A stretch of 62,038 nt of DNA from a virus (taxonomy: Duplodnaviria > Caudoviricetes), in the IMG/VR virus record IMGVR_UViG_3300020207_000023, positions 1-62,038 of that record. One strand, 5' to 3'. This document shows positions 1-61,228 of the stretch, piece by piece; position 1 is the stretch's first letter; each line of letters starts with the position of its first letter. The notes under the pieces were generated by a model that searched no databases, was not told the origin of the DNA, and was given only the letters and a program-made list of their open reading frames with translations. The position numbers and the translations under genes are program-made.

Positions 1-105
1 TGGCTACATACTGTGCCAGTGTAAATGCGGTCGTACTCCCATCACCAGTGAACTGCTGGAATGTGATGTCGCCTACATTTGGGTCTATTCCTATATATGC
101 CATTA
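1..105. repeat. Exact 105-bp direct repeat of 61124-61228 (5' end of the MAYIGIDPNV tail gene plus TAATG junction)
   Basis: Base-by-base identity; copies diverge at 106 (g) vs 61229 (t). Confidence 0.95.
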
Positions 106-17763: not shown

Positions 17764-19236
17764 TTATCCGTAATAGATTTGTTTTCTTGGTGGACCTTCA
17801 ACATAATCGTCATAATCCTCTGGGTGCTGTATAAACCCGCCTTCGCGAAACCGTCGGAGAGCCTGTGTTACCGTGTCAACGAAATCATCATTTTCGCCAG
17901 CCGGAAACGCCGCACACTCCTCTATGACTTCTTCCGCCCATCGTGTATCTGGAGCCCATACTAACCCAGATTCAAGGAGAGGCGCAATGGAGTTTACTCT
18001 TGTGTATTTATCATTCCCTCTGGACGGGCTATAATTCTGCACCGGAATACCCATACTGCGTAACTCTTGCGTCAACGGCATACCACTCGCCTTGGCCTCA
18101 ATCAACACACATTCCGGATCCCAATAATTATATTCCTCCATTGCAATACGCCGCAACTCAGGGAAATCCCATCGGCCACGCCGCGCATCACACAGAATAA
18201 TGTTTGGTGGTTCTCCCTCCTTAGGATAAAACACACCCCATGTGGTTATAGCACTAAAATCAGCATTCGTCTGTTTACTAAACGCCGTATCATAAGACTG
18301 CATCACATAACTCAGCGGCGGGATATCTTCCTTTTCCCACTTCTGCCACCAATCACGCTTCAATATAGCACTCGTCTCAGAAGTAGGATTCTGTTGCCAC
18401 TGCGCTTCCCACTTGCCAACAGACAAAGAAGCCTTAACCTTTAACAACTCATCCTTTTTCCAAAACTCCGGCCACAAAACCTTATCATCATCCAATAACG
18501 CCGGAAACTCAACCACCTCCCACTGGTCTGCCAATACATCGCGAGCCTGTTGCTTCAACAACTTACCCGTCAAATCTATCTCGGACCATCGCGTCATCAC
18601 AATTACAATCGCTCCTCCAGGTTGCAAACGCTGGCGTGGACCAGAAGTATACCACTCATACGCATTCTCCAATGCCGCAGGGGATAACGCATCCTGCTCC
18701 GAGTGCGGATCATCAATAATCATCAAATCCGCACCACGACCAGTAATCGCTCCTCCAACACCAGCCGCAAAATATTCGCCACCAGCATGGGTCTCCCATC
18801 TACCCGCCGCACTACTATCCTGCCGCAACTTTACATCCGGAAAGACCAGAGAGTATTCGTTACTGTTCATAAGGTTACGCACCTTACGTCCAAACCTCAC
18901 CGCCAATTCACCTGTATGCGTCGCCTGAATAATCTTTAACTTAGGGTTCAATCCCATCAACCAACTCGGCAACAAATAACTGGCAAACTCCGACTTCGTA
19001 TGTCGCGGTGGCATATTCACTATCAACCGCTTAATACTGCCATCCGCCAATCCATTAAACTTCTGCGCCATCACCTTATGGTGATTCCCCTCAATAAACT
19101 CAGGCCATACCGTTTTGGTATAAGCCATAAAATCCTTCCTCGCGCGATCACTCGAAGCATACTGTCCACTCTTTTCAAGCAAACGAGCATACTGCTTCAA
19201 CACATCTTCAGGAATAGTCAATGGAGCGTCTGGCAT
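17764..19236 (-). CDS. terL: Terminase large subunit
   Basis: NMPPRHTKS Walker A, IIDDP Walker B, SYDTA and NDDFVD nuclease motifs. Confidence 0.95.
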   Translation of the reverse strand: MPDAPLTIPEDVLKQYARLLEKSGQYASSDRARKDFMAYTKTVWPEFIEGNHHKVMAQKFNGLADGSIKRLIVNMPPRHTKSEFASYLLPSWLMGLNPKLKIIQATHTGELAVRFGRKVRNLMNSNEYSLVFPDVKLRQDSSAAGRWETHAGGEYFAAGVGGAITGRGADLMIIDDPHSEQDALSPAALENAYEWYTSGPRQRLQPGGAIVIVMTRWSEIDLTGKLLKQQARDVLADQWEVVEFPALLDDDKVLWPEFWKKDELLKVKASLSVGKWEAQWQQNPTSETSAILKRDWWQKWEKEDIPPLSYVMQSYDTAFSKQTNADFSAITTWGVFYPKEGEPPNIILCDARRGRWDFPELRRIAMEEYNYWDPECVLIEAKASGMPLTQELRSMGIPVQNYSPSRGNDKYTRVNSIAPLLESGLVWAPDTRWAEEVIEECAAFPAGENDDFVDTVTQALRRFREGGFIQHPEDYDDYVEGPPRKQIYYG

Positions 19237-19448
19237 GGGTCATGTCCTACAGCCAACATCAAACAAGCAATCAAACTACATAAATCGCTCTCTTCCAAAT
19301 ATATGTAATGCGTATGCCCATCCTCATAAAACAAGGTCAAAGCTATATCGCCATCTTCACTGGTCGTAACGCCCACATATTCTGGATCTCTGTTCATGAA
19401 TTCAAAATAGTATAAAAATTTCTGAGGGGCAATGAACCTATAACTCAT
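19218..19448 (-). CDS. Small hypothetical protein overlapping terL start (start uncertain)
   Basis: ORF track only. Confidence 0.35.
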   Translation of the reverse strand: MSYRFIAPQKFLYYFEFMNRDPEYVGVTTSEDGDIALTLFYEDGHTHYIYLEESDLCSLIACLMLAVGHDPCQTLH

Positions 19449-19454
19449 ATTTCA

Positions 19455-19654
19455 AAAAAGGGGGGTGGGGGTACGCGAATAATTATCTCGGTACTAACGA
19501 TGTCGAAAGAACCGTGTATACGCCTACGCATATACACCACTCGTCTGTCAAAGGGGGGTTGGGGGTGTGGCATTTTTGCCACATAGCCTAAAACGCCGCT
19601 GGGGACCCATAGGCGGCGGTTGTGCGGCTGGCGGTAGGTAACACCGCCAGCCGC
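19455..19654. other. Non-coding hairpin and G-tract cluster, candidate genome terminus/packaging signal
   Basis: Two G-run blocks and four inverted repeats. Confidence 0.45.
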
Positions 19655-20337
19655 TAGGGGTTAGCCCATAAGCACTAGGTTGCCATAGGCTGTGCCGTAT
19701 GTGTTAGCGGTTTGTGCGCTGTAGTTAAAGCCGCCATTAAGCACAGCCGCCACAGCATTTTGGTTGGTTGCCGTGCCAGCCGCCGCATTAACATTGGCAA
19801 ACACACTAGCCGCCCAATGTTGGTGCGCCGCCTGTATTGCCGCCAATGGCACAGGCTTGCCAATGCTGGTTGGCAATTTTGTGCTAATGGCTGGCACGTT
19901 GTAAACGGTAACACCGTTGGCGGTTGTGGTTGGCACACCGTTAACGCACGCCCATAAAATAAGGCCGCGTGCGCTAATGTTGCCAGCCTTGTTTGGTTGC
20001 ATGGTGCGCCACATTGCGCCGCCGCCAAACAAAGTGCCGTTGGCAAGTGCGGCTGGCGTTAATTGCAAGCCCACATTGCCTAAACCGTTGGCCTTAATAA
20101 AGGCCGCCATTGCCGCAACGCTAACCGCGTTTTTAGCACCGTTTGCACCGTTAAAAGCCTGTGCCGCTTGTGTTGTTTTGTTAACCATTGTTAACCCCTT
20201 TTTAGTTAATGTGCGGTAGCACCATTGCCCCGCCCCTATTTTATGCCACAGGTTTAATATGTTTGTAAACCCCTTTTTTACAGTATTGCCAAAATAATTA
20301 TTAGCAACGCCGCCACACTACCAAAAACCAGCGCAAT
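19605..20337. other. 733-bp segment with no GA or TC dinucleotide
   Basis: Line-by-line reading; bounded by GA at 19604-19605 and TC at 20337-20338. Confidence 0.93.
19661..20188 (-). CDS. Asp/Glu-free protein, paralog of 20823-21272
   Basis: 175 aa with no D or E; AAGGGG RBS; motifs collinear with paralog. Confidence 0.85.
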   Translation of the reverse strand: MVNKTTQAAQAFNGANGAKNAVSVAAMAAFIKANGLGNVGLQLTPAALANGTLFGGGAMWRTMQPNKAGNISARGLILWACVNGVPTTTANGVTVYNVPAISTKLPTSIGKPVPLAAIQAAHQHWAASVFANVNAAAGTATNQNAVAAVLNGGFNYSAQTANTYGTAYGNLVLMG

Positions 20338-20340
20338 CAT
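20278..20340 (-). CDS. 20-aa hydrophobic micropeptide MIALVFGSVAALLIIILAIL
   Basis: Hand translation; ATGA overlap with upstream stop. Confidence 0.4.
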   Translation of the reverse strand: MIALVFGSVAALLIIILAIL

Positions 20341-20510
20341 TTGTGCCGCCATGCGCCAATATAGCCGACCATAAAACTGGACAGGCCAATAATAAATAGC
20401 AATGCGCTAATGTAATGGTGGAGGGTTGGGATATTAAATGTGTCCACACTGGTAAACATTAAAAAGATACCAGCCAACATTAAATAACCATAGGTAACGA
20501 TAATAAGCAT
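20337..20510 (-). CDS. 57-aa two-TM membrane protein (absent from ORF track)
   Basis: Hand translation MLIIVTYGYLMLAGIFLMF...IGAWRHK; GGGAG RBS. Confidence 0.6.
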   Translation of the reverse strand: MLIIVTYGYLMLAGIFLMFTSVDTFNIPTLHHYISALLFIIGLSSFMVGYIGAWRHK

Positions 20511-20776
20511 AGCAAACTCCCTTGTTTGTGGTTAGGGGTTTACATTGCCAGCCGCCGCCGCGTCTTGCCAGTGCAAAATTGTCACTGTGATAACATGGGA
20601 AGTCGCGTGATTTCACAAGAGTTCATGACGGTCTTTCGTATTCATATGAGTGTATACGAAAGAGAGATCGTCCAATATCCAAAGGGGACTTATCCATCTA
20701 TCTATCTTATATGCTCATGTATACCGATAAGAGATTCATCTTCGTCACTCTTTGTCAATCAATCAATCCATCAAAT

Positions 20777-20804
20777 AAAAAAAGGGCGACCCGAAGGTCG
20801 CCCT
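20777..20804 (-). terminator. Intrinsic terminator with UUCG loop
   Basis: AGGGCGACC-TTCG-GGTCGCCCT then U-tract on minus strand. Confidence 0.9.
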
Positions 20805-20822
20805 CGTTGGAGGTGGAGTGGC

Positions 20823-21272
20823 TTATGCCGGAATGACATAAAGCTCCACGAAGTTTTTGCCCCATGTCGCTTTCGCGCTGGCTGACTGTCCGCCGTTAAG
20901 AGCGTCAAGCAAAGCATGGAAGCGACGCGCCTTAATTGAGCGGTGAGCCATGTCGACATCCTGCAGGGTGACCGTTTCCTTACCGGAGTTGATCAACTGC
21001 CAGACTACCTTGCCACGCAGGACAGACTTAGGTGAACCGTCTGCGTCATACAAGGTCCGCTTGCTTTCAAAGGGGAATGGCTGTTCCGCCTTTGGGTCAA
21101 CGTCGGCTACAATGCGGACGCCTACATTATTAGGATTCCCGCCAGCGTGTTCCTGGACAAACTTAAAAATGTCCTCGGCCGTAACGCCTTCGCGCTTGCG
21201 CTCATCAGGCAGTTCATTGATGCCTGCAAAAGTGATTTCCTGAGCGACTTTTTTAGTGACTGCTTTAGCCAT
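20823..21272 (-). CDS. Hypothetical protein, normally encoded paralog of 19661-20188
   Basis: Start MAKAVTKK behind TAGAAAGGA; own terminator. Confidence 0.8.
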   Translation of the reverse strand: MAKAVTKKVAQEITFAGINELPDERKREGVTAEDIFKFVQEHAGGNPNNVGVRIVADVDPKAEQPFPFESKRTLYDADGSPKSVLRGKVVWQLINSGKETVTLQDVDMAHRSIKARRFHALLDALNGGQSASAKATWGKNFVELYVIPA

Positions 21273-21305
21273 GATAAGTTCCTTTCTACGAACTTGCGAG
21301 TCCAG

Positions 21306-21360
21306 CACCATTGCTGGCTACCCTTATAGAGTAGCAAATTGACCTTCCTATGTAAACCCC
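21306..21360 (-). promoter_or_regulatory. Putative promoter TTTACA-N17-TACTCT, similar to 20218-20273
   Basis: GGGGTTTACA...AGGG...GCAATGGTGCT shared by both paralog leaders. Confidence 0.55.
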
Positions 21361-21475
21361 TAAATTGTCATAATGATAAAGAAAGATGTCGGCGGGTAGA
21401 ACGGCAGAAGTCCATGGACCTCTCACGACTTCACATGATTTCAGCCGCGATGGACGACGAACGAGGAGCCACTGA

Positions 21476-21901
21476 TCACTCTTCGTCGCTCTTCATCAAT
21501 CTATCGAGGACCTCTGCCCATCCATCTTTGTCCCTCGGCCACTCCATCCTGTAATCGTATGTTGGATCATTATCAATCAATCTCTTTGCAAGGTAGCGTC
21601 CATCCATAAACAATAGGCTCTGGGACGAAGGATGATGAACCAAGTTCCAAACGCATCCACCAACATCAGTTCTTGAGGTCTGCCATGCTATTTGATGAGG
21701 ACGCCACTTAGGGAACTTCTTGTCGGACTTTGTCGTAAGAACCTTTAACTCTACCCAGAAGTCCTTGCCATTCGCGCAACCGTTGACGTCAGGGACGCCT
21801 GGACTCGCCCATGACTCCATCCTTACCCAATGGACGTTTAGGTGGCGTGTTCCGTCCCGTAGGGCTTTCCATAATTTAGACTCAGGTTTCGGTGTTGGCA
21901 C
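21476..21901 (-). CDS. PD-(D/E)XK nuclease (VRR-NUC/Holliday junction resolvase-like)
   Basis: PGVPDV...WVELK...PHQIAW. Confidence 0.75.
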   Translation of the reverse strand: MPTPKPESKLWKALRDGTRHLNVHWVRMESWASPGVPDVNGCANGKDFWVELKVLTTKSDKKFPKWRPHQIAWQTSRTDVGGCVWNLVHHPSSQSLLFMDGRYLAKRLIDNDPTYDYRMEWPRDKDGWAEVLDRLMKSDEE

Positions 21902-22442
21902 TTGGATGAACTTCTATTTCTTGGAAGTTCGCATCTATGGTGGGCTGGGTCGCTTCTACAAGTTGGGGGAACTCTTGCTGTATGCGCCTGATCTCTGCCA
22001 TAACCTCATTGCGATCCATCTGGTCTATCTTGCCCATGAGGATTTCCTTGCGGTCAATGTAAAGTCCTGCGGCTTGGCCTCGTGACTTTTCAGCAGTGAC
22101 AGCGGCGGCGTAGTTCCCATTCTGCAACGCTTGGTCTCTTATCTCTGCCAGCTTCTTTACATGGCTTTCAAAGGTGACTTCAAACTTGTGTTGCAGTTCA
22201 TTCTTGATATCGCGTATGCGTTCCAAAACTTGGGGGTAGTCCCGTCCGTTCAACATACGGCTTGCGATGGCGTGTGCATTGGACTCTGCGTAGCCAGCGC
22301 GAAGTGCGGCCTCAGTTTGCGTAACTTCCTCTGTTGCGTAAATCATTGCAAACTTTTCTTGCTTGGGTGTCAGCCCTACTTCCACCCGAGGGTTAGCAAC
22401 AACGTCCAGAGTATTCTTGTGTGTAACTTTCGCTTTCGGCAT
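21882..22442 (-). CDS. terS: Terminase small subunit
   Basis: LTPKQEKFA..TEAALRAGY HTH; RGQAAGLY. Confidence 0.85.
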   Translation of the reverse strand: MPKAKVTHKNTLDVVANPRVEVGLTPKQEKFAMIYATEEVTQTEAALRAGYAESNAHAIASRMLNGRDYPQVLERIRDIKNELQHKFEVTFESHVKKLAEIRDQALQNGNYAAAVTAEKSRGQAAGLYIDRKEILMGKIDQMDRNEVMAEIRRIQQEFPQLVEATQPTIDANFQEIEVHPSANTET

Positions 22443-28275: not shown

Positions 28276-28803
28276 TCACACACTAAGGTTGTGGTGGACT
28301 AGCACTTCGTTTACAGGTGCGAAGTCAGGTAAGTCTGAGAACTTTTTGTAAAGATAATTGATGCCAGTGTGCATTATCACTTTCATCTGCTCGCTTCCTG
28401 CAGAATGGCGATGGGAATAGAGCACGAGTTCAAGCATATCTGCCATCTTAAGTCTGCTTTTTTCTTCTGGCGTTAGGACAAAAGTCAATCCAAGGTCGTC
28501 CATCACTTTCTTTTCAGCCTTTTCAAAGGCTTGCAGGACTTCGGGGAACGACCATTTCGCCGTTGCTGGGATATCACCCAACACCATTTCAGGCACATCG
28601 TGATACAACGCCGCCATGATTAACTGTTTGCTACTATCAGGCCATAACTGGTCAATCAATATACTGACTGCGTATGAATGTGCTCCCACTGTTTGCCTCT
28701 CTGCTTGCATTGGAACAGTATGGTAGCGCAGTAGGAACTGTGCATCCCACGCTGTCATCAATGTTTTAATGTTGGTTGTTGTCTTGCATTTTCGTCCCGC
28801 CAT
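28276..28803 (-). CDS. HD-domain deoxynucleotide phosphohydrolase (YfbR-like)
   Basis: RYH..TVGAHS..ALYHDVPE..GDIP..ADMLE. Confidence 0.85.
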   Translation of the reverse strand: MAGRKCKTTTNIKTLMTAWDAQFLLRYHTVPMQAERQTVGAHSYAVSILIDQLWPDSSKQLIMAALYHDVPEMVLGDIPATAKWSFPEVLQAFEKAEKKVMDDLGLTFVLTPEEKSRLKMADMLELVLYSHRHSAGSEQMKVIMHTGINYLYKKFSDLPDFAPVNEVLVHHNLSV

Positions 28804-30685
28804 CTTTTATTCCTCTTGCCCATGGTTTGTCGCTAAATGTCTTTTTAGCTTCACCCCAGCTCGGACCGAACTCAGCATCCACAACGCTGGGGATTTGCAT
28901 ATTGACACAGGTTTCCATTATTTCTTGTATTTTTGCACCAGTATCAGGGTCAGCAACGGATATGTCAAGTTCATCATGAACCTGAATCATAGGCGTAATA
29001 CCCTCTTCATACAGGGCAACCATCGCCGCTTTAGTTTGGTCAGCGGCACTGCCTTGTATCAATCTATTTAAGGCTTTGTATGTGAATGCTCTTTTGATTG
29101 CCGGACCATGCTCGGCGTAAGCATCTTGATAAGACATGGGTTTGTATGTCCCATACGCATTTGGCTCCCATTTATCAAAACGACACTTGCGTCCTAACAG
29201 GGTGCGTATCAATCCTTTGTTAGATGCACGGTGGATTACATAATCAGCTAACTGTTGCACGAATGGCACTTTTCCATGATACTCGGCAAATAATTCTTTA
29301 GCGTCATCAAACTCCAAACCCAACTGCTCAGCCAGTTTATTCTTACCCATCCCGTAGAATAGGCCGAGGTTAATGTCTTTTGCTTGCTTGCGCGGCACTC
29401 CCACAATATTTGCCGCCATCTGGTGGAAATCGGTATTAGCATCAATGTTATACTGGTCGGCAAACTCTTGTGCGCCTTGCAGTTTCAGTAGGCTGGCATA
29501 ATGAACAACGAGGCGTGGTTCTTGGCTACTGTAATCAAAAGCCCCCCACAATTCACCTTCATCGGGTAGAAACAAGCCACGAATCATCGGACCAATCTCA
29601 GCGTTCCGTGCTGGCACTTGTTGTAGATTAGGATTGCTGTAACTGAAGCGGCCTGTAACTGTGCCGCCATCATCACTTCTCAAACTGTGTGCTTCAGCAT
29701 GGATGCGACCGTTATGTTGGTGCTTCAGTATAGTGTCTATAAAGGTAGTTCGGGCTTTATTCAGCTCTCGAGCTCGAACCACAGCCTTTGGCAAGTCATG
29801 GGCATGGTTGGCTAGAAAGTTTTTAGTGAAGCTAGGCTGTCCTGATTTGGGCGTTTTAGGGTATTTCAGCCCATTAGCGTCGAAGGCTTTAGCAATACTC
29901 GCCGCCGCCCATATATCAATATCTTGCCCACCCGCATCAGCTAGAACCTTTTGTTCTTCGCGTTCCAGATACTCTTTTAACTGCTCTGCTTTTTCAAGGT
30001 CTACCCGCACACCCTTCTTACGCATGGCAAAGACGACCTTTAACACTTTAAGTTCTAAATCAAAAATATCAGCAATATCTTCTTTTAGTATAAGCCCTTT
30101 GAAATGTTGCCACAGTTTCAGCGTAAGTGCGGCATCCTGTTCTGCGTATTGCCCGACAAAGTGGGCTGGCAGTTTCCACATTTCACTCTTAGCATTTACA
30201 CCAAATGAGTTAGCGGCTTCATACAGGTCTTTTTCGCTTTTGCGTTCGTTCAGGTAATCCCTACCAAGTGCGTTCAATGCGTAACTAAACCTGTTTTCAT
30301 CAAGCAGGGCGGCTACGATCATTGTATCAATCACACGGCCTTTAACCTCAATCCCTTCTGCCCACAGCCAGCCGAGGTCATACATAGCATTGTGCATAAT
30401 GTAATCGCGCTCAACAGAAACAATGTTGGAGAGCCATCGCAGAGTTTGCTTTGCATCAAAGTTACCGCCGTTTTCATGACGGATAGGGAAATACCAAGCC
30501 TTGCCCTCTACCGCTACAGCAATCCCAATGACATAGCCATCTTTACGAGGCCAGCCACTACCCATCGTAGTTAGGTTAGGGTCGCGTGTTTCAAGGTCAA
30601 TCGCTATTTCTCTAGCGTCCGACAGGTCGGGGTAGCCATCAGGCATAACCCACTCAGTCGGAGGTGTGAACAAGGGGAACTGCAT
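28766..30685 (-). CDS. polA: Family A DNA polymerase with 3'-5' exonuclease
   Basis: IDLET, HNAMYD, TGRFS..PNLQQVP, DYSSQEPR, KDINLGLFYG, QVHDEL. Confidence 0.95.
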   Translation of the reverse strand: MQFPLFTPPTEWVMPDGYPDLSDAREIAIDLETRDPNLTTMGSGWPRKDGYVIGIAVAVEGKAWYFPIRHENGGNFDAKQTLRWLSNIVSVERDYIMHNAMYDLGWLWAEGIEVKGRVIDTMIVAALLDENRFSYALNALGRDYLNERKSEKDLYEAANSFGVNAKSEMWKLPAHFVGQYAEQDAALTLKLWQHFKGLILKEDIADIFDLELKVLKVVFAMRKKGVRVDLEKAEQLKEYLEREEQKVLADAGGQDIDIWAAASIAKAFDANGLKYPKTPKSGQPSFTKNFLANHAHDLPKAVVRARELNKARTTFIDTILKHQHNGRIHAEAHSLRSDDGGTVTGRFSYSNPNLQQVPARNAEIGPMIRGLFLPDEGELWGAFDYSSQEPRLVVHYASLLKLQGAQEFADQYNIDANTDFHQMAANIVGVPRKQAKDINLGLFYGMGKNKLAEQLGLEFDDAKELFAEYHGKVPFVQQLADYVIHRASNKGLIRTLLGRKCRFDKWEPNAYGTYKPMSYQDAYAEHGPAIKRAFTYKALNRLIQGSAADQTKAAMVALYEEGITPMIQVHDELDISVADPDTGAKIQEIMETCVNMQIPSVVDAEFGPSWGEAKKTFSDKPWARGIKDGGTKMQDNNQH

Positions 30686-30839
30686 CCGCTTTTACTTTCA
30701 TAGGTTGGTTACATGAACAATGAGGCCATTTGTTTTTGAGGTTGCGAAAGGTGAGGTGTTTAACCTCACCCTTGCACTCACACTCAGCAACTACAGGCTC
30801 ATCCAACTTCGAGTTCGAGTTGTCGGTCATCTTTGTCAC
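30654..30839 (-). CDS. Small Cys-containing protein
   Basis: CEC...CSC, overlaps neighbours. Confidence 0.45.
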   Translation of the reverse strand: MTKMTDNSNSKLDEPVVAECECKGEVKHLTFRNLKNKWPHCSCNQPMKVKADAVPLVHTSD

Positions 30840-31245
30840 CGAATCGCATCCTTAATTCAGCCTCAACAAGAAACAAATAACGCCGTAGGTCGCGTATATC
30901 ATCTAAAACGCCTTCCTCGCGTCTGTCTTCCTCTGCTGTTTGGAACACATCATAATTCCAGTCAGCCACTTGCTTTTCAAGCCTGTCCCATTTGCGAGCC
31001 AGCATCATAAAAGCACCAACGCCTCCGCGCTGTTTCCAACTGTTGCCATAGGATTGCTCAGATATATGCAACCCTTCAACATCCTCCATAGCCAGACCCA
31101 GCACCTTATTGATAATGGCACTGTAATCATCGGCATCTATTTCACCGTTCCTAACCAATTTAAGATACTCCTCTTCCTCTAACTCACGCATACGCCGTGT
31201 CATATAAGCCTCGTGACTTTCGTGTTTTACAAAGTTTCCATCCAT
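30799..31245 (-). CDS. Nucleotide-modification-associated (Nmad1/MazG-like) protein
   Basis: SYGNSW..ARKWDRL..LDDIRDLRRY. Confidence 0.65.
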   Translation of the reverse strand: MDGNFVKHESHEAYMTRRMRELEEEEYLKLVRNGEIDADDYSAIINKVLGLAMEDVEGLHISEQSYGNSWKQRGGVGAFMMLARKWDRLEKQVADWNYDVFQTAEEDRREEGVLDDIRDLRRYLFLVEAELRMRFGDKDDRQLELEVG

Positions 31246-32243
31246 TTGTCTTTTCTCCGTTCTAGCCATTCGTAACACGCCAAATGCCAATCATCTGGCT
31301 TTATGTCTTTAGAATGTTCCATGGCTTGGAAAATTTCTTTTGCTTTCCATGCCACCCACATTCTGTGCATAGGCTGTGCCACTTCGCTAAAAACAGAGTT
31401 AACATATGCTCTAGGTTTCTCGGGGTCTTCCATAAACCACTCAAGCTCTTCATCAAAGGTAAGTATGTCGTCAACCAATGGAGAAGGTTTAATCATGCGT
31501 GTAGCATATGAATCATAGTCAGGGGTCATTCCATCAAGCCCCTCCAACACTTCCACATAGGCGTGGAGGTTGTTGCTGAACTGTGTATAGATCCCCACCT
31601 GTGCGCCAATCCGTGCCGCAATGTATTCCTGCAGAATGGACATATGGACAGCGTTAGCTCCCAGCGCACCCCAGATCATATCATTACTGCGGTTGCATAC
31701 CGTCATGTCCAGCTTATTATCGCGAACGCTGAAATATATATGCGTATTACAGGGGTGATCTTTGCATTCATTATCCTTGCGTAAATCACCTTCAGGATCC
31801 CACATAGCTAAAACAGTTCGTCTATCGTTTTCATAGGTCATAAGTCTATGAACAGCTATGTCTAATTGGTCTTTATAGAAATAGTTACGCCATCTATAAC
31901 CATATGCACCTTGGAGGGTCTTACCATTATCACTATAAGTACCCATCCGTTTATTATAACGCTGGATCCACTCAAGGTCTTCACGACCCGCTAACATCCA
32001 GAGGCTTTCCATAAAATGGAATACAGGGTTAGCGTCGCGTTGCGGATAGAACAATACCCGCTCGCAGGGGTTATTGTAAGTAATCGCACAAGGCTCACGG
32101 AACTCAAGTGCTTTACCGTTTCGGGTGTCTACTTCAACACCGCTAGTTTCAAGTGCTTGCTTCACCAGCCATAACGCATCACTGACATTAACAGCGGTGA
32201 ATGTGTGCATACCCCTCATTGGGGCTTTGCCAAATAGTGCCAT
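31227..32243 (-). CDS. Thymidylate synthase homolog, probable dUMP hydroxymethyltransferase
   Basis: Catalytic PC (HPCN), RSND, dUMP-type Asn (GANAVH), NLHAY; clustered with 5-hmdU kinase. Confidence 0.8.
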   Translation of the reverse strand: MALFGKAPMRGMHTFTAVNVSDALWLVKQALETSGVEVDTRNGKALEFREPCAITYNNPCERVLFYPQRDANPVFHFMESLWMLAGREDLEWIQRYNKRMGTYSDNGKTLQGAYGYRWRNYFYKDQLDIAVHRLMTYENDRRTVLAMWDPEGDLRKDNECKDHPCNTHIYFSVRDNKLDMTVCNRSNDMIWGALGANAVHMSILQEYIAARIGAQVGIYTQFSNNLHAYVEVLEGLDGMTPDYDSYATRMIKPSPLVDDILTFDEELEWFMEDPEKPRAYVNSVFSEVAQPMHRMWVAWKAKEIFQAMEHSKDIKPDDWHLACYEWLERRKDKWMETL

Positions 32244-32344
32244 AATGAACCACCTTTCTATGGGGCTATAAAGCCGCTCGAGCGGCTGAGGTTAGTTTGC
32301 CCTACCCAACTACCAAAAGCAACCTTCTGGCGGCTGTATGGGGC

Positions 32345-33346
32345 TTAAATAAAGTCAAAATGCTTCTTGACACGCTTAGTGTATGTCCCTCCATTTAATG
32401 CTTCTTTAATTGCAGTTTCCGTTTCCTCTGTAGGCTCGGGTAACGTCTTGCGTCCCATGCGGTCAGGTAACAATCCATTACGAAGAGTGGTGTTGTCACA
32501 ACCGTTACAAGGACCGAAATCGCGTTGCCCATGATACAGTTTTGTTCTCGCCGCATGGAAAGCCTCCCCCTGCCAAATATCATCAATATGTGTGTCCATT
32601 ATATTGCCGCACTTATACCATCCTACCCAATCATTACAGCAGACTGCGACATTGCCATCCCATCGTATTGACATTTCGCGGAAAGGTTTAGCACAGCGTT
32701 TGCCATCTTGGTCATGGTTCAATGGAAAAGCATTTCCAGCATGGTTGCTAACTTGGGCATGAGTTCCACTTGTAGCCAATGTGAGATCCATGCCAACAAC
32801 GATATCATGCTCTGTAACTTTTCTTCTACGGTGGGGGTTTGCGGCGCGGTCGGCGGGGTATTCAAAAACGGGATGTGGACCATTGTAACGCTCCTTGATT
32901 TTATCTACGATTTTAATACGGTCGTAGTTATCAAGGAATAGAACATTTAGCCCTGCATCCATAAGTTTGTTGACCGTTTCCTCTGTGTCTTTCAACAACC
33001 CACCACCATTGCTAGTCATCATAAGCGGTGTTCTGGGTAACTCTTTACGGAACAGACCCACCATTTCAATAAAGAAAGGGTGCATAGTAGGCTCGCCGTG
33101 CATAGCAAACTCAATGCGTGGATTCCACCCTGCCCTTTTAATTTCCTGACAAATTCGGGTAGCCGTTTGAATATGCAGATTTTTGTAAGGGGCAGATGCT
33201 TTACCATGCAGATTACTCGGACCATCAGCCTCGTTTTCACGGATAGACTGTATGCCGCAAAATGAGCAAGCAAGGTTGCACCCTTCCACAAACTCTACCT
33301 GAATAGAGTTTGGTGGGTCTTGATAAAAGTTAGATTGCTCCACCAT
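32345..33346 (-). CDS. Radical SAM enzyme with SPASM/twitch domain
   Basis: CNLACSFC, HGEP, C..PF...DGNVAVCC...GNI...CNGC. Confidence 0.9.
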   Translation of the reverse strand: MVEQSNFYQDPPNSIQVEFVEGCNLACSFCGIQSIRENEADGPSNLHGKASAPYKNLHIQTATRICQEIKRAGWNPRIEFAMHGEPTMHPFFIEMVGLFRKELPRTPLMMTSNGGGLLKDTEETVNKLMDAGLNVLFLDNYDRIKIVDKIKERYNGPHPVFEYPADRAANPHRRRKVTEHDIVVGMDLTLATSGTHAQVSNHAGNAFPLNHDQDGKRCAKPFREMSIRWDGNVAVCCNDWVGWYKCGNIMDTHIDDIWQGEAFHAARTKLYHGQRDFGPCNGCDNTTLRNGLLPDRMGRKTLPEPTEETETAIKEALNGGTYTKRVKKHFDFI

Positions 33347-34115
33347 CTTTAGCGGCCTTTCTCCATTGAACACGGACATCCCACCGCGTTTTCATACCTT
33401 CCCAACCTGTTTTAGTTTCCTTTTGTAATGCTTTCACATACAACGGAAAGGCTTGTTCCAAAGCGCGGCTGGCGCGTTCTTGCAGTTCAGCATTGCGATA
33501 TGTGCTACAGCCTCCAGCCGCACCAGAAGCACCACGCTGATCCCATGTCCAATCTACAATAACCGCATTGCCGTGTCCCTTTTGGAATAGGCTGAGGGTT
33601 ACATAGTAGTCCTCCATTAACTCCATAGCATCATAGCGTATGCCTAATTGTTGGAGGATATGGGGGCGTATGGCATGGACAGCGTTTTGCCGCATCCCAT
33701 ACTTTACCCGATCTGGGTAATGTTTGTCATTCATCTGGCGTGGGCTGAGGCCAACATGGGTGAAGTTATTTAACAGCCACTCCATGCGCTCCCACAGTTC
33801 GTGCATCTCACCCTGCTCAGTTTTTCTTAGGTTAGGTGCGTCATCATGTGCGCGGCGACCAAATATAAGATCGTCATCCAAAATAATAATTTTATCATAC
33901 TCCTGCTCCACTGCGTGATCTACAATAAATTGCCGGACATTGTTTATGCCCTTGATATCACCACGGTTCAGGCAGTAACGACCATTGTTAATATGTGCTT
34001 GCACTTCTTCTTGTGGGCAAACCAGAACCGCACTTTCTCTTGCTTCCGGACCAATACTTTCCCAAGTAGTTTGCTTGTTGATCCTACCCCTTGTAGGAAT
34101 AAAAATAGGTATCAT
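33330..34115 (-). CDS. GT-A glycosyltransferase, TAGT/JGT/GREB1-like DNA-base type
   Basis: IFIPTRGR, ILDDDL, MEDY, GGCS motifs. Confidence 0.75.
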   Translation of the reverse strand: MIPIFIPTRGRINKQTTWESIGPEARESAVLVCPQEEVQAHINNGRYCLNRGDIKGINNVRQFIVDHAVEQEYDKIIILDDDLIFGRRAHDDAPNLRKTEQGEMHELWERMEWLLNNFTHVGLSPRQMNDKHYPDRVKYGMRQNAVHAIRPHILQQLGIRYDAMELMEDYYVTLSLFQKGHGNAVIVDWTWDQRGASGAAGGCSTYRNAELQERASRALEQAFPLYVKALQKETKTGWEGMKTRWDVRVQWRKAAKDGGAI

Positions 34116-34432
34116 AACTCATCCTCATCAAACCTTATTGAACCAGAGGCCATTGCTTCTTCTAACTCTTCATCGGTTAGGTTGTCAATGTCTGCTTCAG
34201 TATATTTAAAAACCTTTTGTGGCTTCGTCCTCGGCCGTAACCGTTTCTTTTTGTTTGGCTTTGGTTGCTCGGGTTTCGGTTTCGGCACGGTGGGCTTGGA
34301 GGTCTCTAATACTTCCAATGTCCGATAGATGTGCTTGCATTTCTGACATACTCGCTTCCTCCGGACTGATTTGTCTGCTGTAAGTCTGCTGTCTGCGACG
34401 GTTGATTTGCCACTGCATTTTGGACACAACAT
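34112..34432 (-). CDS. NrdR-like Zn-ribbon protein without ATP cone
   Basis: CPKC..STVADSR..VRRKRVCQKC...RTLE. Confidence 0.7.
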   Translation of the reverse strand: MLCPKCSGKSTVADSRLTADKSVRRKRVCQKCKHIYRTLEVLETSKPTVPKPKPEQPKPNKKKRLRPRTKPQKVFKYTEADIDNLTDEELEEAMASGSIRFDEDEL

Positions 34433-34434
34433 TT

Positions 34435-35340
34435 CTACACCACCCCACCATTAGGAGCCTCCAACCACATTCCAACATTAGCCTGATACTTACTGCGTGG
34501 CTTGCCTTGTCCAAGGCGCACACGCTCATACTTATCCCACTCGCACAGGCTATGCTCAATAGTTCGCATATCTACTGCATCAAGGGGAACATGAGATTGA
34601 ATGTAGTTTGGTGCTTGAGCCAGTAACTCTTGCATTTCGGTATTGGCTTGGGTCTGGTTCATAGACTTAGTCAACACCCTATCGTGGATACGGTTCAGTC
34701 CTCGCTTTGCTCCCGGACCTGCGTTTGCCCAACTAAAACGGTCTTGTGCCTTGTCCAATACAGGTGTGTAGTTGAGGTCGGTAACCACTTCGTATGACAT
34801 AAAGCCTCCCCCTCCCCATCCCCGATAGGAAGCCATCGCTTTGTGGGTCGCCTCCAACGATTGCGTTTCCTCAGCGACCCCCGATAAATGCACCCTGTCT
34901 TTCCAAATAGGTTTGAGGAAGTGGTCAACAACGACCTCCGACTTACGAGCTTTGAGACCTTGATTAGTGATTATATAAGCTCCAGTGAATGTCCGCAAAC
35001 CAGAGGACAACCTAGCCTCAATAAGTTCTTTGGTATGGTCGGGATTCCATCCTTTATCTTCGTCAACCCACCCATGCTCTTCGGCAAACTCGCTTGTGCC
35101 AATCATGCGGAACAAACAACAATTAAAAACGATTTCACTGTGCGGACGGTTAGCATTTGGGTTAGTCCAGTTTTGGCGCATCCAAACAGTAACACGGTCA
35201 TTTTCACGGAAGGGGTTGGTGAACTTGTAATCCTGCAAAATGTGGTCGTCAGTCCAAGGGGGATTGACCCCCTTGGCTCGCTTTTGGTAAATAGCGTGAC
35301 GCTCATTTATCCAGTAAAAGAACCTTTCTATGTTCTCCAT
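34435..35340 (-). CDS. 5-hmdU DNA kinase (aGPT-Pplase1 family)
   Basis: ERHAI..PPWTDDHILQDYKFTN..RENDR, FTGAY, GPGAKRGL, EHSLCEWDKY. Confidence 0.85.
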   Translation of the reverse strand: MENIERFFYWINERHAIYQKRAKGVNPPWTDDHILQDYKFTNPFRENDRVTVWMRQNWTNPNANRPHSEIVFNCCLFRMIGTSEFAEEHGWVDEDKGWNPDHTKELIEARLSSGLRTFTGAYIITNQGLKARKSEVVVDHFLKPIWKDRVHLSGVAEETQSLEATHKAMASYRGWGGGGFMSYEVVTDLNYTPVLDKAQDRFSWANAGPGAKRGLNRIHDRVLTKSMNQTQANTEMQELLAQAPNYIQSHVPLDAVDMRTIEHSLCEWDKYERVRLGQGKPRSKYQANVGMWLEAPNGGVV

Positions 35341-60497: not shown

Positions 60498-61226
60498 TCA
60501 CAGTATTGTTAAGTTGCCATCGACCGTAATAGTCACCGACGAATCTATCGTCAACGGACCAATAGCCAAAGCATTTTTAGTTGACCCTATAGTCGTATTC
60601 TGCGTAACCGATTGGTTATTCGTACGGAATACAGCCGTATCAACCGTTGTATTTGTCGTTTGAAACTGCGGTGCTGTAATTTCACCACTGAAAGTTCCAC
60701 CCGATGCCTTACTTACTGTATCAGTAACTGTGAAAGCGCGAAAGGCTCTAATCACTAATTCATCACTTGCCGACGCACCACTAGCCAGCGTAATCGTATC
60801 ACCATTACTAGGGGTATAATCAGTGCTATCTAAATGCACACCATTCAAATACACATCTACATCATTGCCGCTAAACGCTAATATCGCGCCATTATAATCA
60901 GCACCAGTAAAAACTGTCTGGCTGGCAGTCGCTACATACTTAAATAACTGCATAGCGTATGACAGGGGCTGGTCTACAGCGCGACCAAAGTAACGGACAG
61001 TAATTACATCGCCGTTAGCGGGCGCGGCAGAAAAAGTAAGTGTATTGCCATAAGCTGTATAAGCGGCACTAGATCCAGGCTCTTGCACTACATTACCAAT
61101 AGTGACAATGATAGCCTCACCACTGGCTACATACTGTGCCAGTGTAAATGCGGTCGTACTCCCATCACCAGTGAACTGCTGGAATGTGATGTCGCCTACA
61201 TTTGGGTCTATTCCTATATATGCCAT
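60498..61226 (-). CDS. Tail fibre base/adaptor protein
   Basis: MAYIG start, FTGDGSTTAFTL, VYLNGV motifs. Confidence 0.65.
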   Translation of the reverse strand: MAYIGIDPNVGDITFQQFTGDGSTTAFTLAQYVASGEAIIVTIGNVVQEPGSSAAYTAYGNTLTFSAAPANGDVITVRYFGRAVDQPLSYAMQLFKYVATASQTVFTGADYNGAILAFSGNDVDVYLNGVHLDSTDYTPSNGDTITLASGASASDELVIRAFRAFTVTDTVSKASGGTFSGEITAPQFQTTNTTVDTAVFRTNNQSVTQNTTIGSTKNALAIGPLTIDSSVTITVDGNLTIL

Positions 61227-61228
61227 TA
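61124..61228. repeat. Second copy of the 105-bp repeat at 1-105
   Basis: Exact identity. Confidence 0.95.

What the first reader, a model, noticed from the sequence alone, without database searches (positions are those of the whole stretch)
19661..21272. Paralog pair: one copy written without Asp/Glu, one written normally
Seen: the 175-aa protein has no D or E (all GAN codons) and ends in TAA. It aligns collinearly with 20823-21272: VSVAAMAAFIKANGLGNVGLQL / VTAEDIFKFVQEHAGGNPNNVGVRI; ARGLILWACVNG / LRGKVVWQLINS; VPLAAIQAAH / VTLQDVDMAH; AVAAVLNGG..SA / ALLDALNGG..SA; TYGTAYGNLVL / TWGKNFVELYV. Acidic positions are often Ala or Asn in the purged copy. Both leaders share GGGGTTTACA...AGGG...GCAATGGTGCT. 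Inference: a duplicated transcription unit where one copy gave up two amino acids to purge TC/GA, acting as a bootstrap version before the normal copy can be expressed. Function unknown; lacking acids it is not an Ocr-like DNA mimic.
Basis: partly seen in the sequence, partly recalled or inferred. Interest (0 to 1): 0.92.

Follow-up and report, generated by a model that had tools for sequence, protein, structure and literature searches.

The report
Phage gene purged of GA/TC steps
A marine phage keeps one whole gene, promoter included, free of the two-base step GA/TC, so its protein contains no aspartate or glutamate, probably so that this one gene escapes the chemical modification the phage puts on the rest of its own DNA.

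Summary
Window 19605-20336 has no GA or TC on either strand: a 733-bp gap, against 65 bp for the next longest. It spans the promoter, leader, 175-aa ORF and terminators of one transcription unit.

The missing Asp/Glu is a by-product. Synonymous GA is absent too: GGA 0 of 756 Gly codons and G|A codon junctions 0 of 1873 in 41 distinct relatives.

The purge is conserved: 45 of 68 related IMG/VR loci, down to 35% protein identity, keep gaps of at least 620 bp. dN/dS is 0.04-0.13.

ORF175 and ORF149 are paralogs. hhalign gives E 3.9e-5 directly, and 4.4e-13 and 3e-20 through a bridging family. Promoter and leader were duplicated with them.

All 16 genomes checked carry a 5-hmdU DNA kinase hypermodification cluster.

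Best reading (0.5): TC is the hypermodification context, and this unit is a modification-free expression island.

The parts
19605..20336 (.). GA/TC-free zone: no 5'-GA-3' or 5'-TC-3' on either strand. Bounded by a GA in a terminator loop (19604) and by the TGA stop codon of the upstream gene (20337).
   Evidence: conserved in related loci
19661..20188 (-). ORF175 (the 'p2' copy): 175 aa, no Asp or Glu, pI 10.2, stop TAA. Purged paralog in a protein family with no known function.
20239..20273 (-). Promoter of ORF175: AGGGGTTTACA (-35 TTTACA at 20264-20269), a 17-18 nt spacer, then GCATAAAA as the -10 region. Sigma-70-like and conserved in relatives. The spacers are also free of GA/TC.
   Evidence: 24 distinct spacers, 408 nt: 1 GA, 1 TC
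20216..20231 (-). 5'-leader stem-loop holding the shared 11-mer GCAATGGTGCT (20218-20228). The stems covary between relatives. The window's own copy forms 4 of the 6 consensus pairs.
   Evidence: 4 of 6 pairs show compensatory changes
20195..20199 (-). Ribosome-binding site AGGGG, a Shine-Dalgarno written without GA. Some relatives use GGAG instead.
19590..19654 (-). Two terminator-like hairpins after the stop codon. One is a perfect 12-bp stem (19624-19654). The second is followed by a T run on the - strand, and the GA/TC-free zone ends in its loop.
   Evidence: I6; read from the sequence
20337..20510 (-). 57-aa small membrane protein between the two paralogs. It is partly depleted of sense-strand GA (2 in 174 nt). 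In loci L010 and L019 it lies fully inside the purged zone.
20823..21272 (-). ORF149 (the 'p1' copy): the normally written paralog, 19 Asp+Glu, with ordinary GA (5.6 per 100 nt) and TC (5.8 per 100 nt).
21304..21360 (-). Promoter (GGGGTTTACA 21351-21360) and leader 11-mer (21304-21314) of ORF149. Same layout as the ORF175 unit, but the spacer contains GA and TC.
20782..20805 (-). Intrinsic-terminator-like hairpin plus T run ending the ORF149 unit.
28276..35340 (-). Thymidine hypermodification gene cluster, with the DNA polymerase gene inside it: HD phosphohydrolase 28276-28803, thymidylate-synthase-like 31227-32243, radical SAM/SPASM 32345-33379, TAGT-like glycosyltransferase 33330-34115, NrdR-like Zn ribbon 34112-34432, 5-hmdU DNA kinase 34435-35340.
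   Evidence: HMUDK_hel E 1.7e-51; 36% identical to phage M6 ORF055

Best explanation
ORF175 is the second copy (p2) of an old tandem duplication of a phage transcription unit. The first copy (p1) is ORF149. Selection on the DNA duplex keeps the whole p2 unit free of the step 5'-GA-3'/5'-TC-3': promoter, hairpin leader, ORF and terminators. Losing all GAN codons, and so Asp and Glu, is the price paid.

The most likely reason is that 5'-TC-3' is the context in which the phage's 5-hmdU DNA kinase pathway installs its bulky thymidine hypermodification after replication. Without any TC on either strand, this about 730-bp unit would be the one part of the genome that never carries the adduct. Its sigma-70-type promoter and its template would then look the same to the host RNA polymerase whether the surrounding DNA is virion-grade modified or freshly replicated. 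Expression of this copy would not depend on modification state, while the normally written copy would follow it.

Shown: the purge, its maintenance by selection, the paralogy, and the co-occurrence with the kinase cluster.

Inferred: that TC is the modified context, that the adduct disturbs promoter use or transcription, and when each copy is expressed.

The protein's own job is unknown. It is basic, and relatives carry K/A/P-rich tails, so I guess it handles DNA.
For: 1. **The constraint is on nucleotides, not on the protein.**
   - In 41 distinct strict relatives: GGA 0 of 756 Gly codons, CGA/AGA 0 of 58 Arg codons, G|A codon junctions 0 of 1873, NTC 2 of 1453.
   - In neighbouring genes of the same loci: GGA 571 of 1765, G|A 1527 of 5137, NTC 923 of 4875.
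2. **It acts on duplex DNA beyond the mRNA.** Both strands are purged. 24 distinct non-transcribed promoter spacers (408 nt) hold 1 GA and 1 TC. GA and TC are near zero from -100 to +600 relative to the ATG in 52 strict loci.
3. **It is actively maintained.** dS is 0.23-0.49 between strict pairs without one new GA or TC, and dN/dS is 0.04-0.13.
4. **It is costly.** Where the purge is lost, acidic residues return, at 5-8 per protein.
5. **There is one such zone per genome** in all 6 genomes scanned for it.
6. **The kinase is always present.** HMUDK_hel is found in the window and in 15 of 15 further records that hold the pair. The enzymes downstream of the kinase differ between clades while the purged dinucleotide stays the same. 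That fits specificity residing in the kinase.
7. **Published precedent.** PMC6449724 (abstract and passages read) infers from restriction resistance that 5-HMUDK-type modification in M6, ViI and phi W-14 sits at T in TG or TC dinucleotides.
8. **Palindrome avoidance.**
   - In 16 of 16 genomes, palindromes containing GA/TC are less avoided than the rest (mean log2 O/E -0.61 against -1.22; permutation P 0.013).
   - None of the 15 most avoided palindromes contains GA/TC.
   - The AG/CT control class, which has the same base composition, shows no effect.
   - M6 shows the same signature for TG/CA (+1.96), the context that paper reports for its kinase.
9. **Site density.** TC/GA steps number 6356, or 19% of all T on both strands. 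From memory, known partial hypermodifications replace 20-50% of T.
Against: - No chemistry. Neither the modified base nor its sequence context is known for this phage group.
- The palindrome effect is modest once GC content is controlled (coefficient 0.53 +- 0.27, t 1.9). The 16 genomes are related to each other.
- The kinase-free control HTVC027P avoids palindromes only weakly overall, so it is a poor control (GA/TC difference 0.15).
- All other genes, including the capsid gene (GA 6.3, TC 6.4 per 100 nt), are full of GA/TC yet must be transcribed. The adduct therefore cannot block transcription in general.
- Lineages that lost the purge partly or fully (16 of 68 loci in clade 1; many in clade 2) still carry the kinase and the same cluster genes. 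Presence of the cluster does not predict purge state.
- Phage M6, which has a homologous kinase, has no dinucleotide-free island.
- In vitro work with T7 RNA polymerase found only moderate effects of such uracil modifications (PMC11550810, abstract read).
- The co-occurrence of pair and kinase may simply reflect shared ancestry.
Confidence: 0.5

Rival explanations
1. The purge is at DNA level but aimed at an outside enzyme rather than the phage's own modification. Candidates are a host or competitor factor that acts at GA/TC steps: a TC-specific double-strand DNA deaminase, a nuclease, or CRISPR interference with a TTC-type PAM. The unit would be a target-free cassette for a gene that must survive or stay unmutated.
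For: The purge is strand-symmetric and includes non-transcribed promoter DNA. Purge state varies between close relatives that have identical modification clusters. TC-relaxed genomes tend to carry a different endolysin type, which hints at different hosts. That TC-context deaminases and TTC PAMs exist is recalled, not tested.
Against: Protecting 730 bp of a 62-kb genome does not save the phage from a nuclease or from CRISPR. More conserved and essential genes such as terL and the portal gene are not purged. A PAM or restriction site would need only a longer motif removed, not every GA/TC. This reading gives no reason for the strict link with the kinase cluster (16 of 16 genomes).
Confidence: 0.15
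2. The purge is at RNA level. The mRNA must lack GA, and in most lineages UC, to resist an endoribonuclease or to escape a GGA-binding translational repressor. This would resemble ACA-less mRNAs that survive MazF.
For: In clade 1 the sense-strand GA ban is universal, while sense TC can return to background. In 6 relaxed lineages GGA is 0 of 105 and G|A is 0 of 287, but NTC is 33 of 236 against 158 of 912 in neighbouring genes. The ribosome-binding site is written AGGGG without GA. A stabilising 5' hairpin suggests the mRNA's lifetime matters.
Against: Non-transcribed promoter spacers and DNA upstream of the -35 are purged too. The reverse asymmetry occurs in clade 2, where TC is 0 while GA persists only in 1-5 Asp/Glu codons. 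An RNA reading would therefore need two separate RNA specificities. Several lineages tolerate GGAG in the leader. Pfam and PHROG scans of about 30 window proteins found no phage RNase.
Confidence: 0.1
3. The zone is a cis-acting DNA site that must stay unmodified, such as a packaging recognition site or a transcription-primed origin between terS and terL. The ORF merely lies within it.
For: The position between terS and terL is conserved in all loci whose contigs reach that far. Duplex symmetry fits protein recognition of DNA.
Against: The zone's edges track one transcription unit, from promoter to terminators. The ORF is under strong purifying selection with conserved motifs. The zone is 620-970 bp long, far more than known terminase or origin sites need (recalled). 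In clade 2 the unit sits at varying distances from p1.
Confidence: 0.07
4. The purge reflects mutational bias, not selection: local hypermutation of TC to TT (and so GA to AA) in a highly exposed region. A variant holds that selection acts purely at protein level for a protein without acidic residues.
For: Asn is frequent (20 of 175 residues). AA and TT are slightly higher in purged copies than in p1 (11.8 and 7.6 against 10.6 and 6.3 per 100 nt).
Against: The zone's G+C (52%) is above the genome's 46%, which is the opposite of C-to-T decay. The edges are sharp at the unit's borders. Synonymous substitutions are plentiful yet never create GA or TC. Gly codons cycle among GGT, GGC and GGG only. 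Protein-level selection cannot explain the absence of GGA, of G|A junctions, of TCN and NTC codons, or of GA/TC in non-coding DNA.
Confidence: 0.04

Closest known systems
Dinucleotide-context thymidine hypermodification by 5-hmdU DNA kinase pathways (phages M6, ViI, phi W-14)
   Same: The window's kinase is homologous: Pfam HMUDK_hel E 1.7e-51 and 36% identity to M6 ORF055. It sits with a thymidylate-synthase-like gene next to the DNA polymerase. Published restriction data place these modifications at T followed by G or C (PMC6449724).
   Different: None of those phages is reported to keep a gene free of the context, and M6 has no such island. Here only TC/GA is purged. TG/CA is abundant in the zone (CA 57, TG 67). 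The modification of this marine group has not been identified.
Restriction-site and palindrome avoidance in phage genomes
   Same: Selection removes short DNA words recognised by DNA-acting enzymes. These genomes avoid palindromes strongly, for example GTGCAC and GGCC.
   Different: Known avoidance is genome-wide, statistical and concerns 4-6-bp sites. This case is absolute, local to one transcription unit, concerns a 2-bp step, and removes two amino acids from a protein.
ACA-less mRNAs that escape the MazF endoribonuclease (recalled)
   Same: A gene is written without a short word so that it alone stays expressible.
   Different: That case works at RNA level on one strand. Here both strands and non-transcribed promoter DNA are purged.
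Proteins tuned to modified phage DNA, such as SPO1 TF1 (binds hmU DNA) or T4 Alc (recalled)
   Same: They are phage proteins whose role depends on the phage's base substitution. That is a possible functional analogy for the p1/p2 family, which was found only in kinase-bearing genomes.
   Different: There is no sequence or fold relation. Pfam, PHROG, PDB sequence and Foldseek searches found nothing. Function is untested.
Ocr/ArdA-type DNA mimics
   Same: Small phage proteins with strongly skewed charge.
   Different: The sign is opposite. ORF175 has no acidic residue and a net charge of about +8.

Membership tests
p1/p2 family (unnamed; ORF149-like and ORF175-like proteins) | Significant profile-level similarity between the two window proteins | tested here: met
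   hhalign A1 against A2: probability 70.5%, E 3.9e-5. Via bridging family A4: A1-A4 97.9%, E 4.4e-13; A2-A4 99.3%, E 3e-20. The A2 profile pulls D/E-free proteins out of 1.8 billion representatives. BLASTP alone is not significant (E 0.19).
p1/p2 family (unnamed; ORF149-like and ORF175-like proteins) | Shared motifs and the same order of secondary-structure elements | tested here: met
   Invariant R, W, N, LNGG and (Y/W)G residues line up. The AlphaFold2 models (pLDDT 78.6 and 88.7) have the same helix/strand order, with two insertions in ORF175. The two models could not be superposed with the tools at hand.
p1/p2 family (unnamed; ORF149-like and ORF175-like proteins) | Tandem arrangement with duplicated promoter and leader | tested here: met
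   The leaders align with the same spacing. The order terS-nuclease-p1-(membrane ORF)-p2-terL holds in clade 1 loci. In L089-L167 most loci show p1 followed by p2; the others show a single copy on short contigs.
5-hmdU DNA kinase thymidine hypermodification system | 5-HMUDK gene | tested here: met
   PF18723 E 1.7e-51, 175.7 bits against a cut-off of 25. Found in 15 of 15 related records.
5-hmdU DNA kinase thymidine hypermodification system | A source of 5-hmdU (thymidylate-synthase-like hydroxymethylase) and downstream tailoring enzymes | tested here: inconclusive
   Pfam hits to Thymidylat_synt (1.4e-19), Radical_SAM/SPASM, TAGT and HD. Whether the synthase-like enzyme makes 5-hmdUMP was not tested.
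5-hmdU DNA kinase thymidine hypermodification system | Hypermodified thymidine present in virion DNA, in a defined sequence context | not testable with these tools
   Only indirect evidence: palindromes containing GA/TC are less avoided, and there is published TG/TC context for other phages.
Ocr-like acidic DNA mimic | Highly acidic surface | tested here: not met
   0 Asp/Glu, pI 10.18
HU/TF1-type DNA-binding proteins | Sequence or fold match to the HU family | tested here: not met
   No Pfam or PHROG family. No Foldseek PDB hit at E <= 0.001. No PDB profile hit at E <= 10 for A2.

The most novel reading that the evidence does not exclude
The purged unit reveals two things. First, it reads out the kinase's sequence rule: hypermodification at T of 5'-TC-3'. 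Second, it shows that hypermodified DNA is a poor substrate for the host RNA polymerase. On this reading p2 is a pioneer factor, the only gene readable on the incoming, fully modified genome. Its product licenses transcription or replication of modified DNA. Later the better, acid-containing paralog p1 is made from new, not yet modified copies and takes over. A natural protein family would thus have lived for a long time on an 18-letter amino-acid alphabet because of a rule written in DNA chemistry.
Probability: 0.2. Interest if true: 0.95.

Novelty: categorically new. Interest (0 to 1): 0.88.

Why it matters
- **A rare kind of constraint.** A DNA-level rule has removed two amino acids from a conserved natural protein family, and it has been kept across proteins down to 35% identity.
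- **A way to read specificity from sequence.** If TC is the modification context, the purge gives the sequence specificity of a hypermodification enzyme from genomes alone. For thymidine hypermodifications that specificity was called unknown in 2018 (PMC5889632, passage read). It was only inferred from restriction patterns in 2019.
- **A testable link to gene expression.** It would also show that phages must manage how their own DNA armour affects transcription. That question becomes directly testable with the p1/p2 pair, because the two units share the same promoter design and differ in the purge.
- **Abundance.** The phages belong to the HTVC023P-type marine podovirus group. The abstracts listed call pelagiphages abundant and the HTVC023P type widespread; the group itself was assigned by terL similarity.
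- **Prior reports.** Seven literature searches (plus the reading) found no report of a dinucleotide-free gene.

Tried and rejected
**Searches for a known family.** All were empty.
- Pfam and PHROGs for both proteins and for 10 distant relatives.
- PDB profile search with A2.
- Foldseek against PDB for both models: no hit at E <= 0.001.
- ESM Atlas for ORF149.
- blastn and tblastn against 50,697 phage records for the region, ORF175, ORF149 and P0115.

**Looking for what explains loss of the purge.**
- The kinase cluster is present and alike in purged and relaxed genomes.
- A gene presence/absence screen over 16 genomes gave only an endolysin-type swap, Hydrolase_2 against Phage_lysozyme. Numbers are small and confounded by relatedness, so I set it aside.
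- No other dinucleotide is purged in relaxed copies.

**Generality.** M6 has no dinucleotide-free island. HTVC027P, which lacks the kinase, has none either.

**Replacement pattern at acidic positions.** Only 3 alignment columns were usable, which is uninformative.

**Structured RNAs and tRNAs.**
- Rfam on 19200-21700 gave only two sub-threshold hits on the ORF149 terminator.
- There are no tRNAs.

**Genome ends.** No terminal repeat was found. The first 105 nt recur at 61124, inside the tail-fibre genes.

**Complex prediction of ORF149 with ORF175.** No verdict (score 0.01), so this is evidence neither for nor against binding.

**RNA-library contigs.** They cover ORF175 and ORF149 at 100% identity. 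They cannot show strand, ends or level, and DNA carry-over is possible. I use them only as a weak hint. Stretches without cover are not interpreted.

- Supplements were not opened.
Full report
**What the window is.**
- The window is a 62,038-bp virus record. Nearly all genes lie on the - strand.
- Its large terminase is 58-64% identical to those of Pelagibacter phages HTVC027P and HTVC023P and of two uncultured relatives.
- The finding lies between the small terminase (21882-22442) and the large terminase (17764-19236).
- In order on the - strand: terS, a VRR-NUC-like nuclease, ORF149, a 57-aa membrane ORF, ORF175, two small ORFs, terL.
- This is the head of the packaging and structural block, about 20 kb downstream of the replication genes.
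- About 30 proteins were scanned and no phage RNA polymerase was found. Transcription presumably relies on the host enzyme.

**The observation.**
- ORF175 (19661-20188, -) has no Asp and no Glu and ends in TAA.
- The underlying anomaly is in the DNA. Between 19604 and 20337 there is no GA and no TC on either strand.
  - This gap is 733 bp. The next longest of 6356 gaps is 65 bp.
  - No other dinucleotide class has a gap above 205 bp.
  - The expected number of gaps this long is about 1.5e-29.
- Re-coding the same protein with the window's own codon usage gives 30.8 +- 4.5 GA+TC, minimum 15, in 20000 trials.
- No other gene in the window comes near zero for both strands. ORF175 has 0 per 100 nt. 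The other genes have GA 3.9-10.6 and TC 1.1-7.2 per 100 nt, except the adjacent 57-aa ORF, whose sense GA is 1.1.

**Anatomy of the unit.**
- The zone starts right after the TGA stop of the upstream membrane ORF and ends in the loop of the second terminator hairpin.
- It contains these elements:
  - an A/T-rich stretch;
  - AGGGGTTTACA;
  - a 17-18-nt spacer and a TATAAT-like box;
  - a stem-loop leader with covarying stems (4 of 6 pairs show compensatory changes);
  - a ribosome-binding site written AGGGG;
  - the ORF;
  - two hairpins.
- ORF149 has the same promoter word, the same 11-mer in its leader hairpin at the same spacing, and its own terminator. Its promoter spacer and its ORF contain ordinary numbers of GA and TC.

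**Paralogy.**
- BLASTP between the two proteins is not significant (E 0.19).
- Family profiles (25 and 37 sequences) align collinearly over 128 columns at E 3.9e-5. The invariant residues of both families fall in the same columns.
- A search of 1.8 billion representative proteins with the ORF149 profile returned 49 hits at E <= 0.001. These include about a dozen proteins with 0-2 acidic residues.
- An alignment of 11 of these (A4) matches the ORF175 family at E 4.4e-13 and the ORF149 family at E 3e-20.
- The AlphaFold2 models (pLDDT 78.6 and 88.7) have the same order of helices and strands.
- I conclude the two are paralogs in one unnamed family.
- Neither model nor either profile matches anything solved or named.

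**Conservation of the purge.**
- Of 29 protein homologs of ORF175 (52-97% identity), 25 have no Asp or Glu.
- In 68 IMG/VR loci (35-99% identity):
  - 57 encode a copy with no acidic residue;
  - 45 keep a GA/TC-free gap of 620-973 bp;
  - gene order is conserved.
- Averaged over 52 'strict' loci, GA and TC are each at or below 0.2 per 100 nt from -100 to +500 relative to the ATG. GA is already rising in the last bin (+500 to +600: GA 0.9, TC 0.2). Both then rise to background.
- The ban is on nucleotides. Counts in 41 distinct strict ORFs, with neighbouring genes of the same loci for comparison:

| Site | Strict ORFs | Neighbouring genes |
|---|---|---|
| GGA among Gly codons | 0 of 756 | 571 of 1765 |
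| CGA/AGA among Arg codons | 0 of 58 | 577 of 1558 |
| G\|A codon junctions | 0 of 1873 | 1527 of 5137 |
| NTC codons | 2 of 1453 | 923 of 4875 |

- Non-transcribed DNA is included. 24 distinct promoter spacers (408 nt) hold one GA and one TC. Outside one lineage, the 30 nt upstream of the -35 hold none.
- The gene is real and constrained. dN/dS is 0.04-0.13. Strict pairs differ at dS 0.23-0.49 without a single new GA or TC.

**Loss and partial loss.**
- In clade 1, 16 of 68 loci, in about six lineages, have regained sense-strand TC. Their NTC codons are 33 of 236, against 158 of 912 in neighbouring genes.
- These loci still show no synonymous GA: GGA 0 of 105 and junctions 0 of 287.
- A second, more distant clade (79 loci) has the same layout of p1 followed by p2. 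Its p2 copies show every state:
  - both GA and TC at zero;
  - TC zero with GA only inside 1-5 retained Asp/Glu codons;
  - GA zero with TC back;
  - fully relaxed copies with 5-8 acidic residues.
- On a tree of 181 distinct family members, p1 copies cluster together. The p2 copies of each clade also cluster. Relaxed states are scattered among purged ones (midpoint root, FastTree, so deep nodes are uncertain).
- From this I draw three points. The two bans are separable in both directions. The purge looks older than its losses. Acids return when it lapses, which marks the acid-free state as a cost.

**Link to DNA hypermodification.**
- The window carries a 5-hmdU DNA kinase (HMUDK_hel, E 1.7e-51). 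It also carries a thymidylate-synthase-like gene, a radical SAM/SPASM enzyme, a TAGT-like glycosyltransferase and an HD hydrolase, all around the DNA polymerase gene.
- The kinase is 36% identical to that of phage M6.
- PMC9599517 (passages read) reports such genes in HTVC023P-type clades V, VIII and IX. It states that multiple auxiliary genes of the uncultivated genomes are absent from the cultivated HTVC023P-type phages.
  - HTVC027P has no such genes between its helicase and polymerase.
  - No Pelagibacter phage is named among the organism groups of the 96 phage records with a kinase homolog.
- The kinase was found in 15 of 15 further records that hold the pair, including fully relaxed ones.
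- The gene after the kinase differs between clades while the purged step is the same.
- PMC6449724 (abstract and passages) infers that kinase-dependent modification in M6, ViI and phi W-14 sits at T in TG or TC.
- As an indirect test I compared avoidance of 4- and 6-bp palindromes with and without each dinucleotide class:
  - In 16 of 16 genomes those containing GA/TC are less avoided (-0.61 against -1.22 log2 O/E; permutation P 0.013).
  - The AG/CT class, which has the same composition, shows nothing.
  - The TG/CA class is more avoided.
  - After GC control the effect is t = 1.9.
  - M6 gives the mirror picture, with TG/CA sites spared (+1.96).
  - HTVC027P shows little avoidance of any kind.

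**Interpretation.**
- The purge is strand-symmetric, reaches non-transcribed promoter DNA, and can lapse on either strand. This points to recognition of the duplex step rather than of the mRNA.
- The match to one transcription unit points to expression rather than to a packaging or origin site.
- Together with the kinase cluster and the published dinucleotide contexts, the best reading is a modification-free expression island. I give it 0.5.
- Against this reading:
  - every other gene is transcribed despite abundant GA/TC;
  - loss of the purge is not explained by cluster content;
  - M6 has no island;
  - no chemistry exists for this phage group.
- Rivals and their weights are listed separately.
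- Metatranscriptome contigs from three runs cover ORF175 and ORF149 without mismatch. One contig joins the membrane ORF to the start of ORF175. This is a weak hint of expression only.

**Function of the protein.** It is unknown. ORF175 is basic (pI 10.2, about +8), and relatives carry K/A/P-rich tails. A DNA-associated role is a guess.

**Novelty.**
- I found no report of a gene or transcription unit kept free of a dinucleotide, or of a protein family lacking two amino acids for that reason.
- Supplements were closed.

Noticed in passing
window 28276-35340 (-): A thymidine hypermodification cluster: HD hydrolase, thymidylate-synthase-like gene, radical SAM/SPASM, TAGT-like glycosyltransferase, NrdR-like Zn ribbon and 5-hmdU DNA kinase, arranged around the family A DNA polymerase. 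The second clade (G006-G015) replaces the radical SAM and TAGT genes with one ORF of 424-446 aa or 340-364 aa that I did not identify.
   Followed up: partly
whole window and records G001-G015: Very strong avoidance of some palindromes. Mean log2 O/E over 16 genomes: GTGCAC -5.0, GCTAGC -4.2, GGCC -4.0, GGTACC -3.9. None of the 15 most avoided contains GA/TC.
   Followed up: partly
window 20202-20225 (-): A 7-codon upstream ORF (ATG GTG CTA ... TAA) lies inside the leader hairpin of ORF175. In the ORF149 leader the same ATG is in frame with the main ORF, giving the 162-aa reading. Homologs start at MAKSAKK, which favours the start at 21272.
   Followed up: no
window 20511-20781: A 270-bp intergenic stretch between the ORF149 terminator and the membrane ORF. 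It is unusually rich in GA/TC, holds a 13-bp inverted repeat (20632-20663), and carries a reversed copy of GGGGTTTACA at 20535-20544 on the + strand. Rfam gives no match within it; the only two hits, both far below threshold, lie at its upstream edge on the ORF149 terminator (20770-20860).
   Followed up: partly
window 1-105 and 61124-61228: The first 105 nt of the record recur inside the tail-fibre region. Several tail-fibre-like ORFs share N-terminal modules. No terminal repeat marks the genome ends.
   Followed up: no
G001, G002, G006-G008, G009 compared with the other genomes: Genomes whose p2 copy has regained TC mostly carry a Hydrolase_2-type cell-wall hydrolase instead of the phage lysozyme. 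This may mark a different host group. Numbers are small and confounded by relatedness.
   Followed up: partly
window 20337-20510 (-): The 57-aa membrane ORF between the paralogs has only 2 sense-strand GA, one of them in its stop codon. In L010 and L019 it lies wholly inside a 970-bp purged zone. One RNA-library contig joins it to ORF175.
   Followed up: partly
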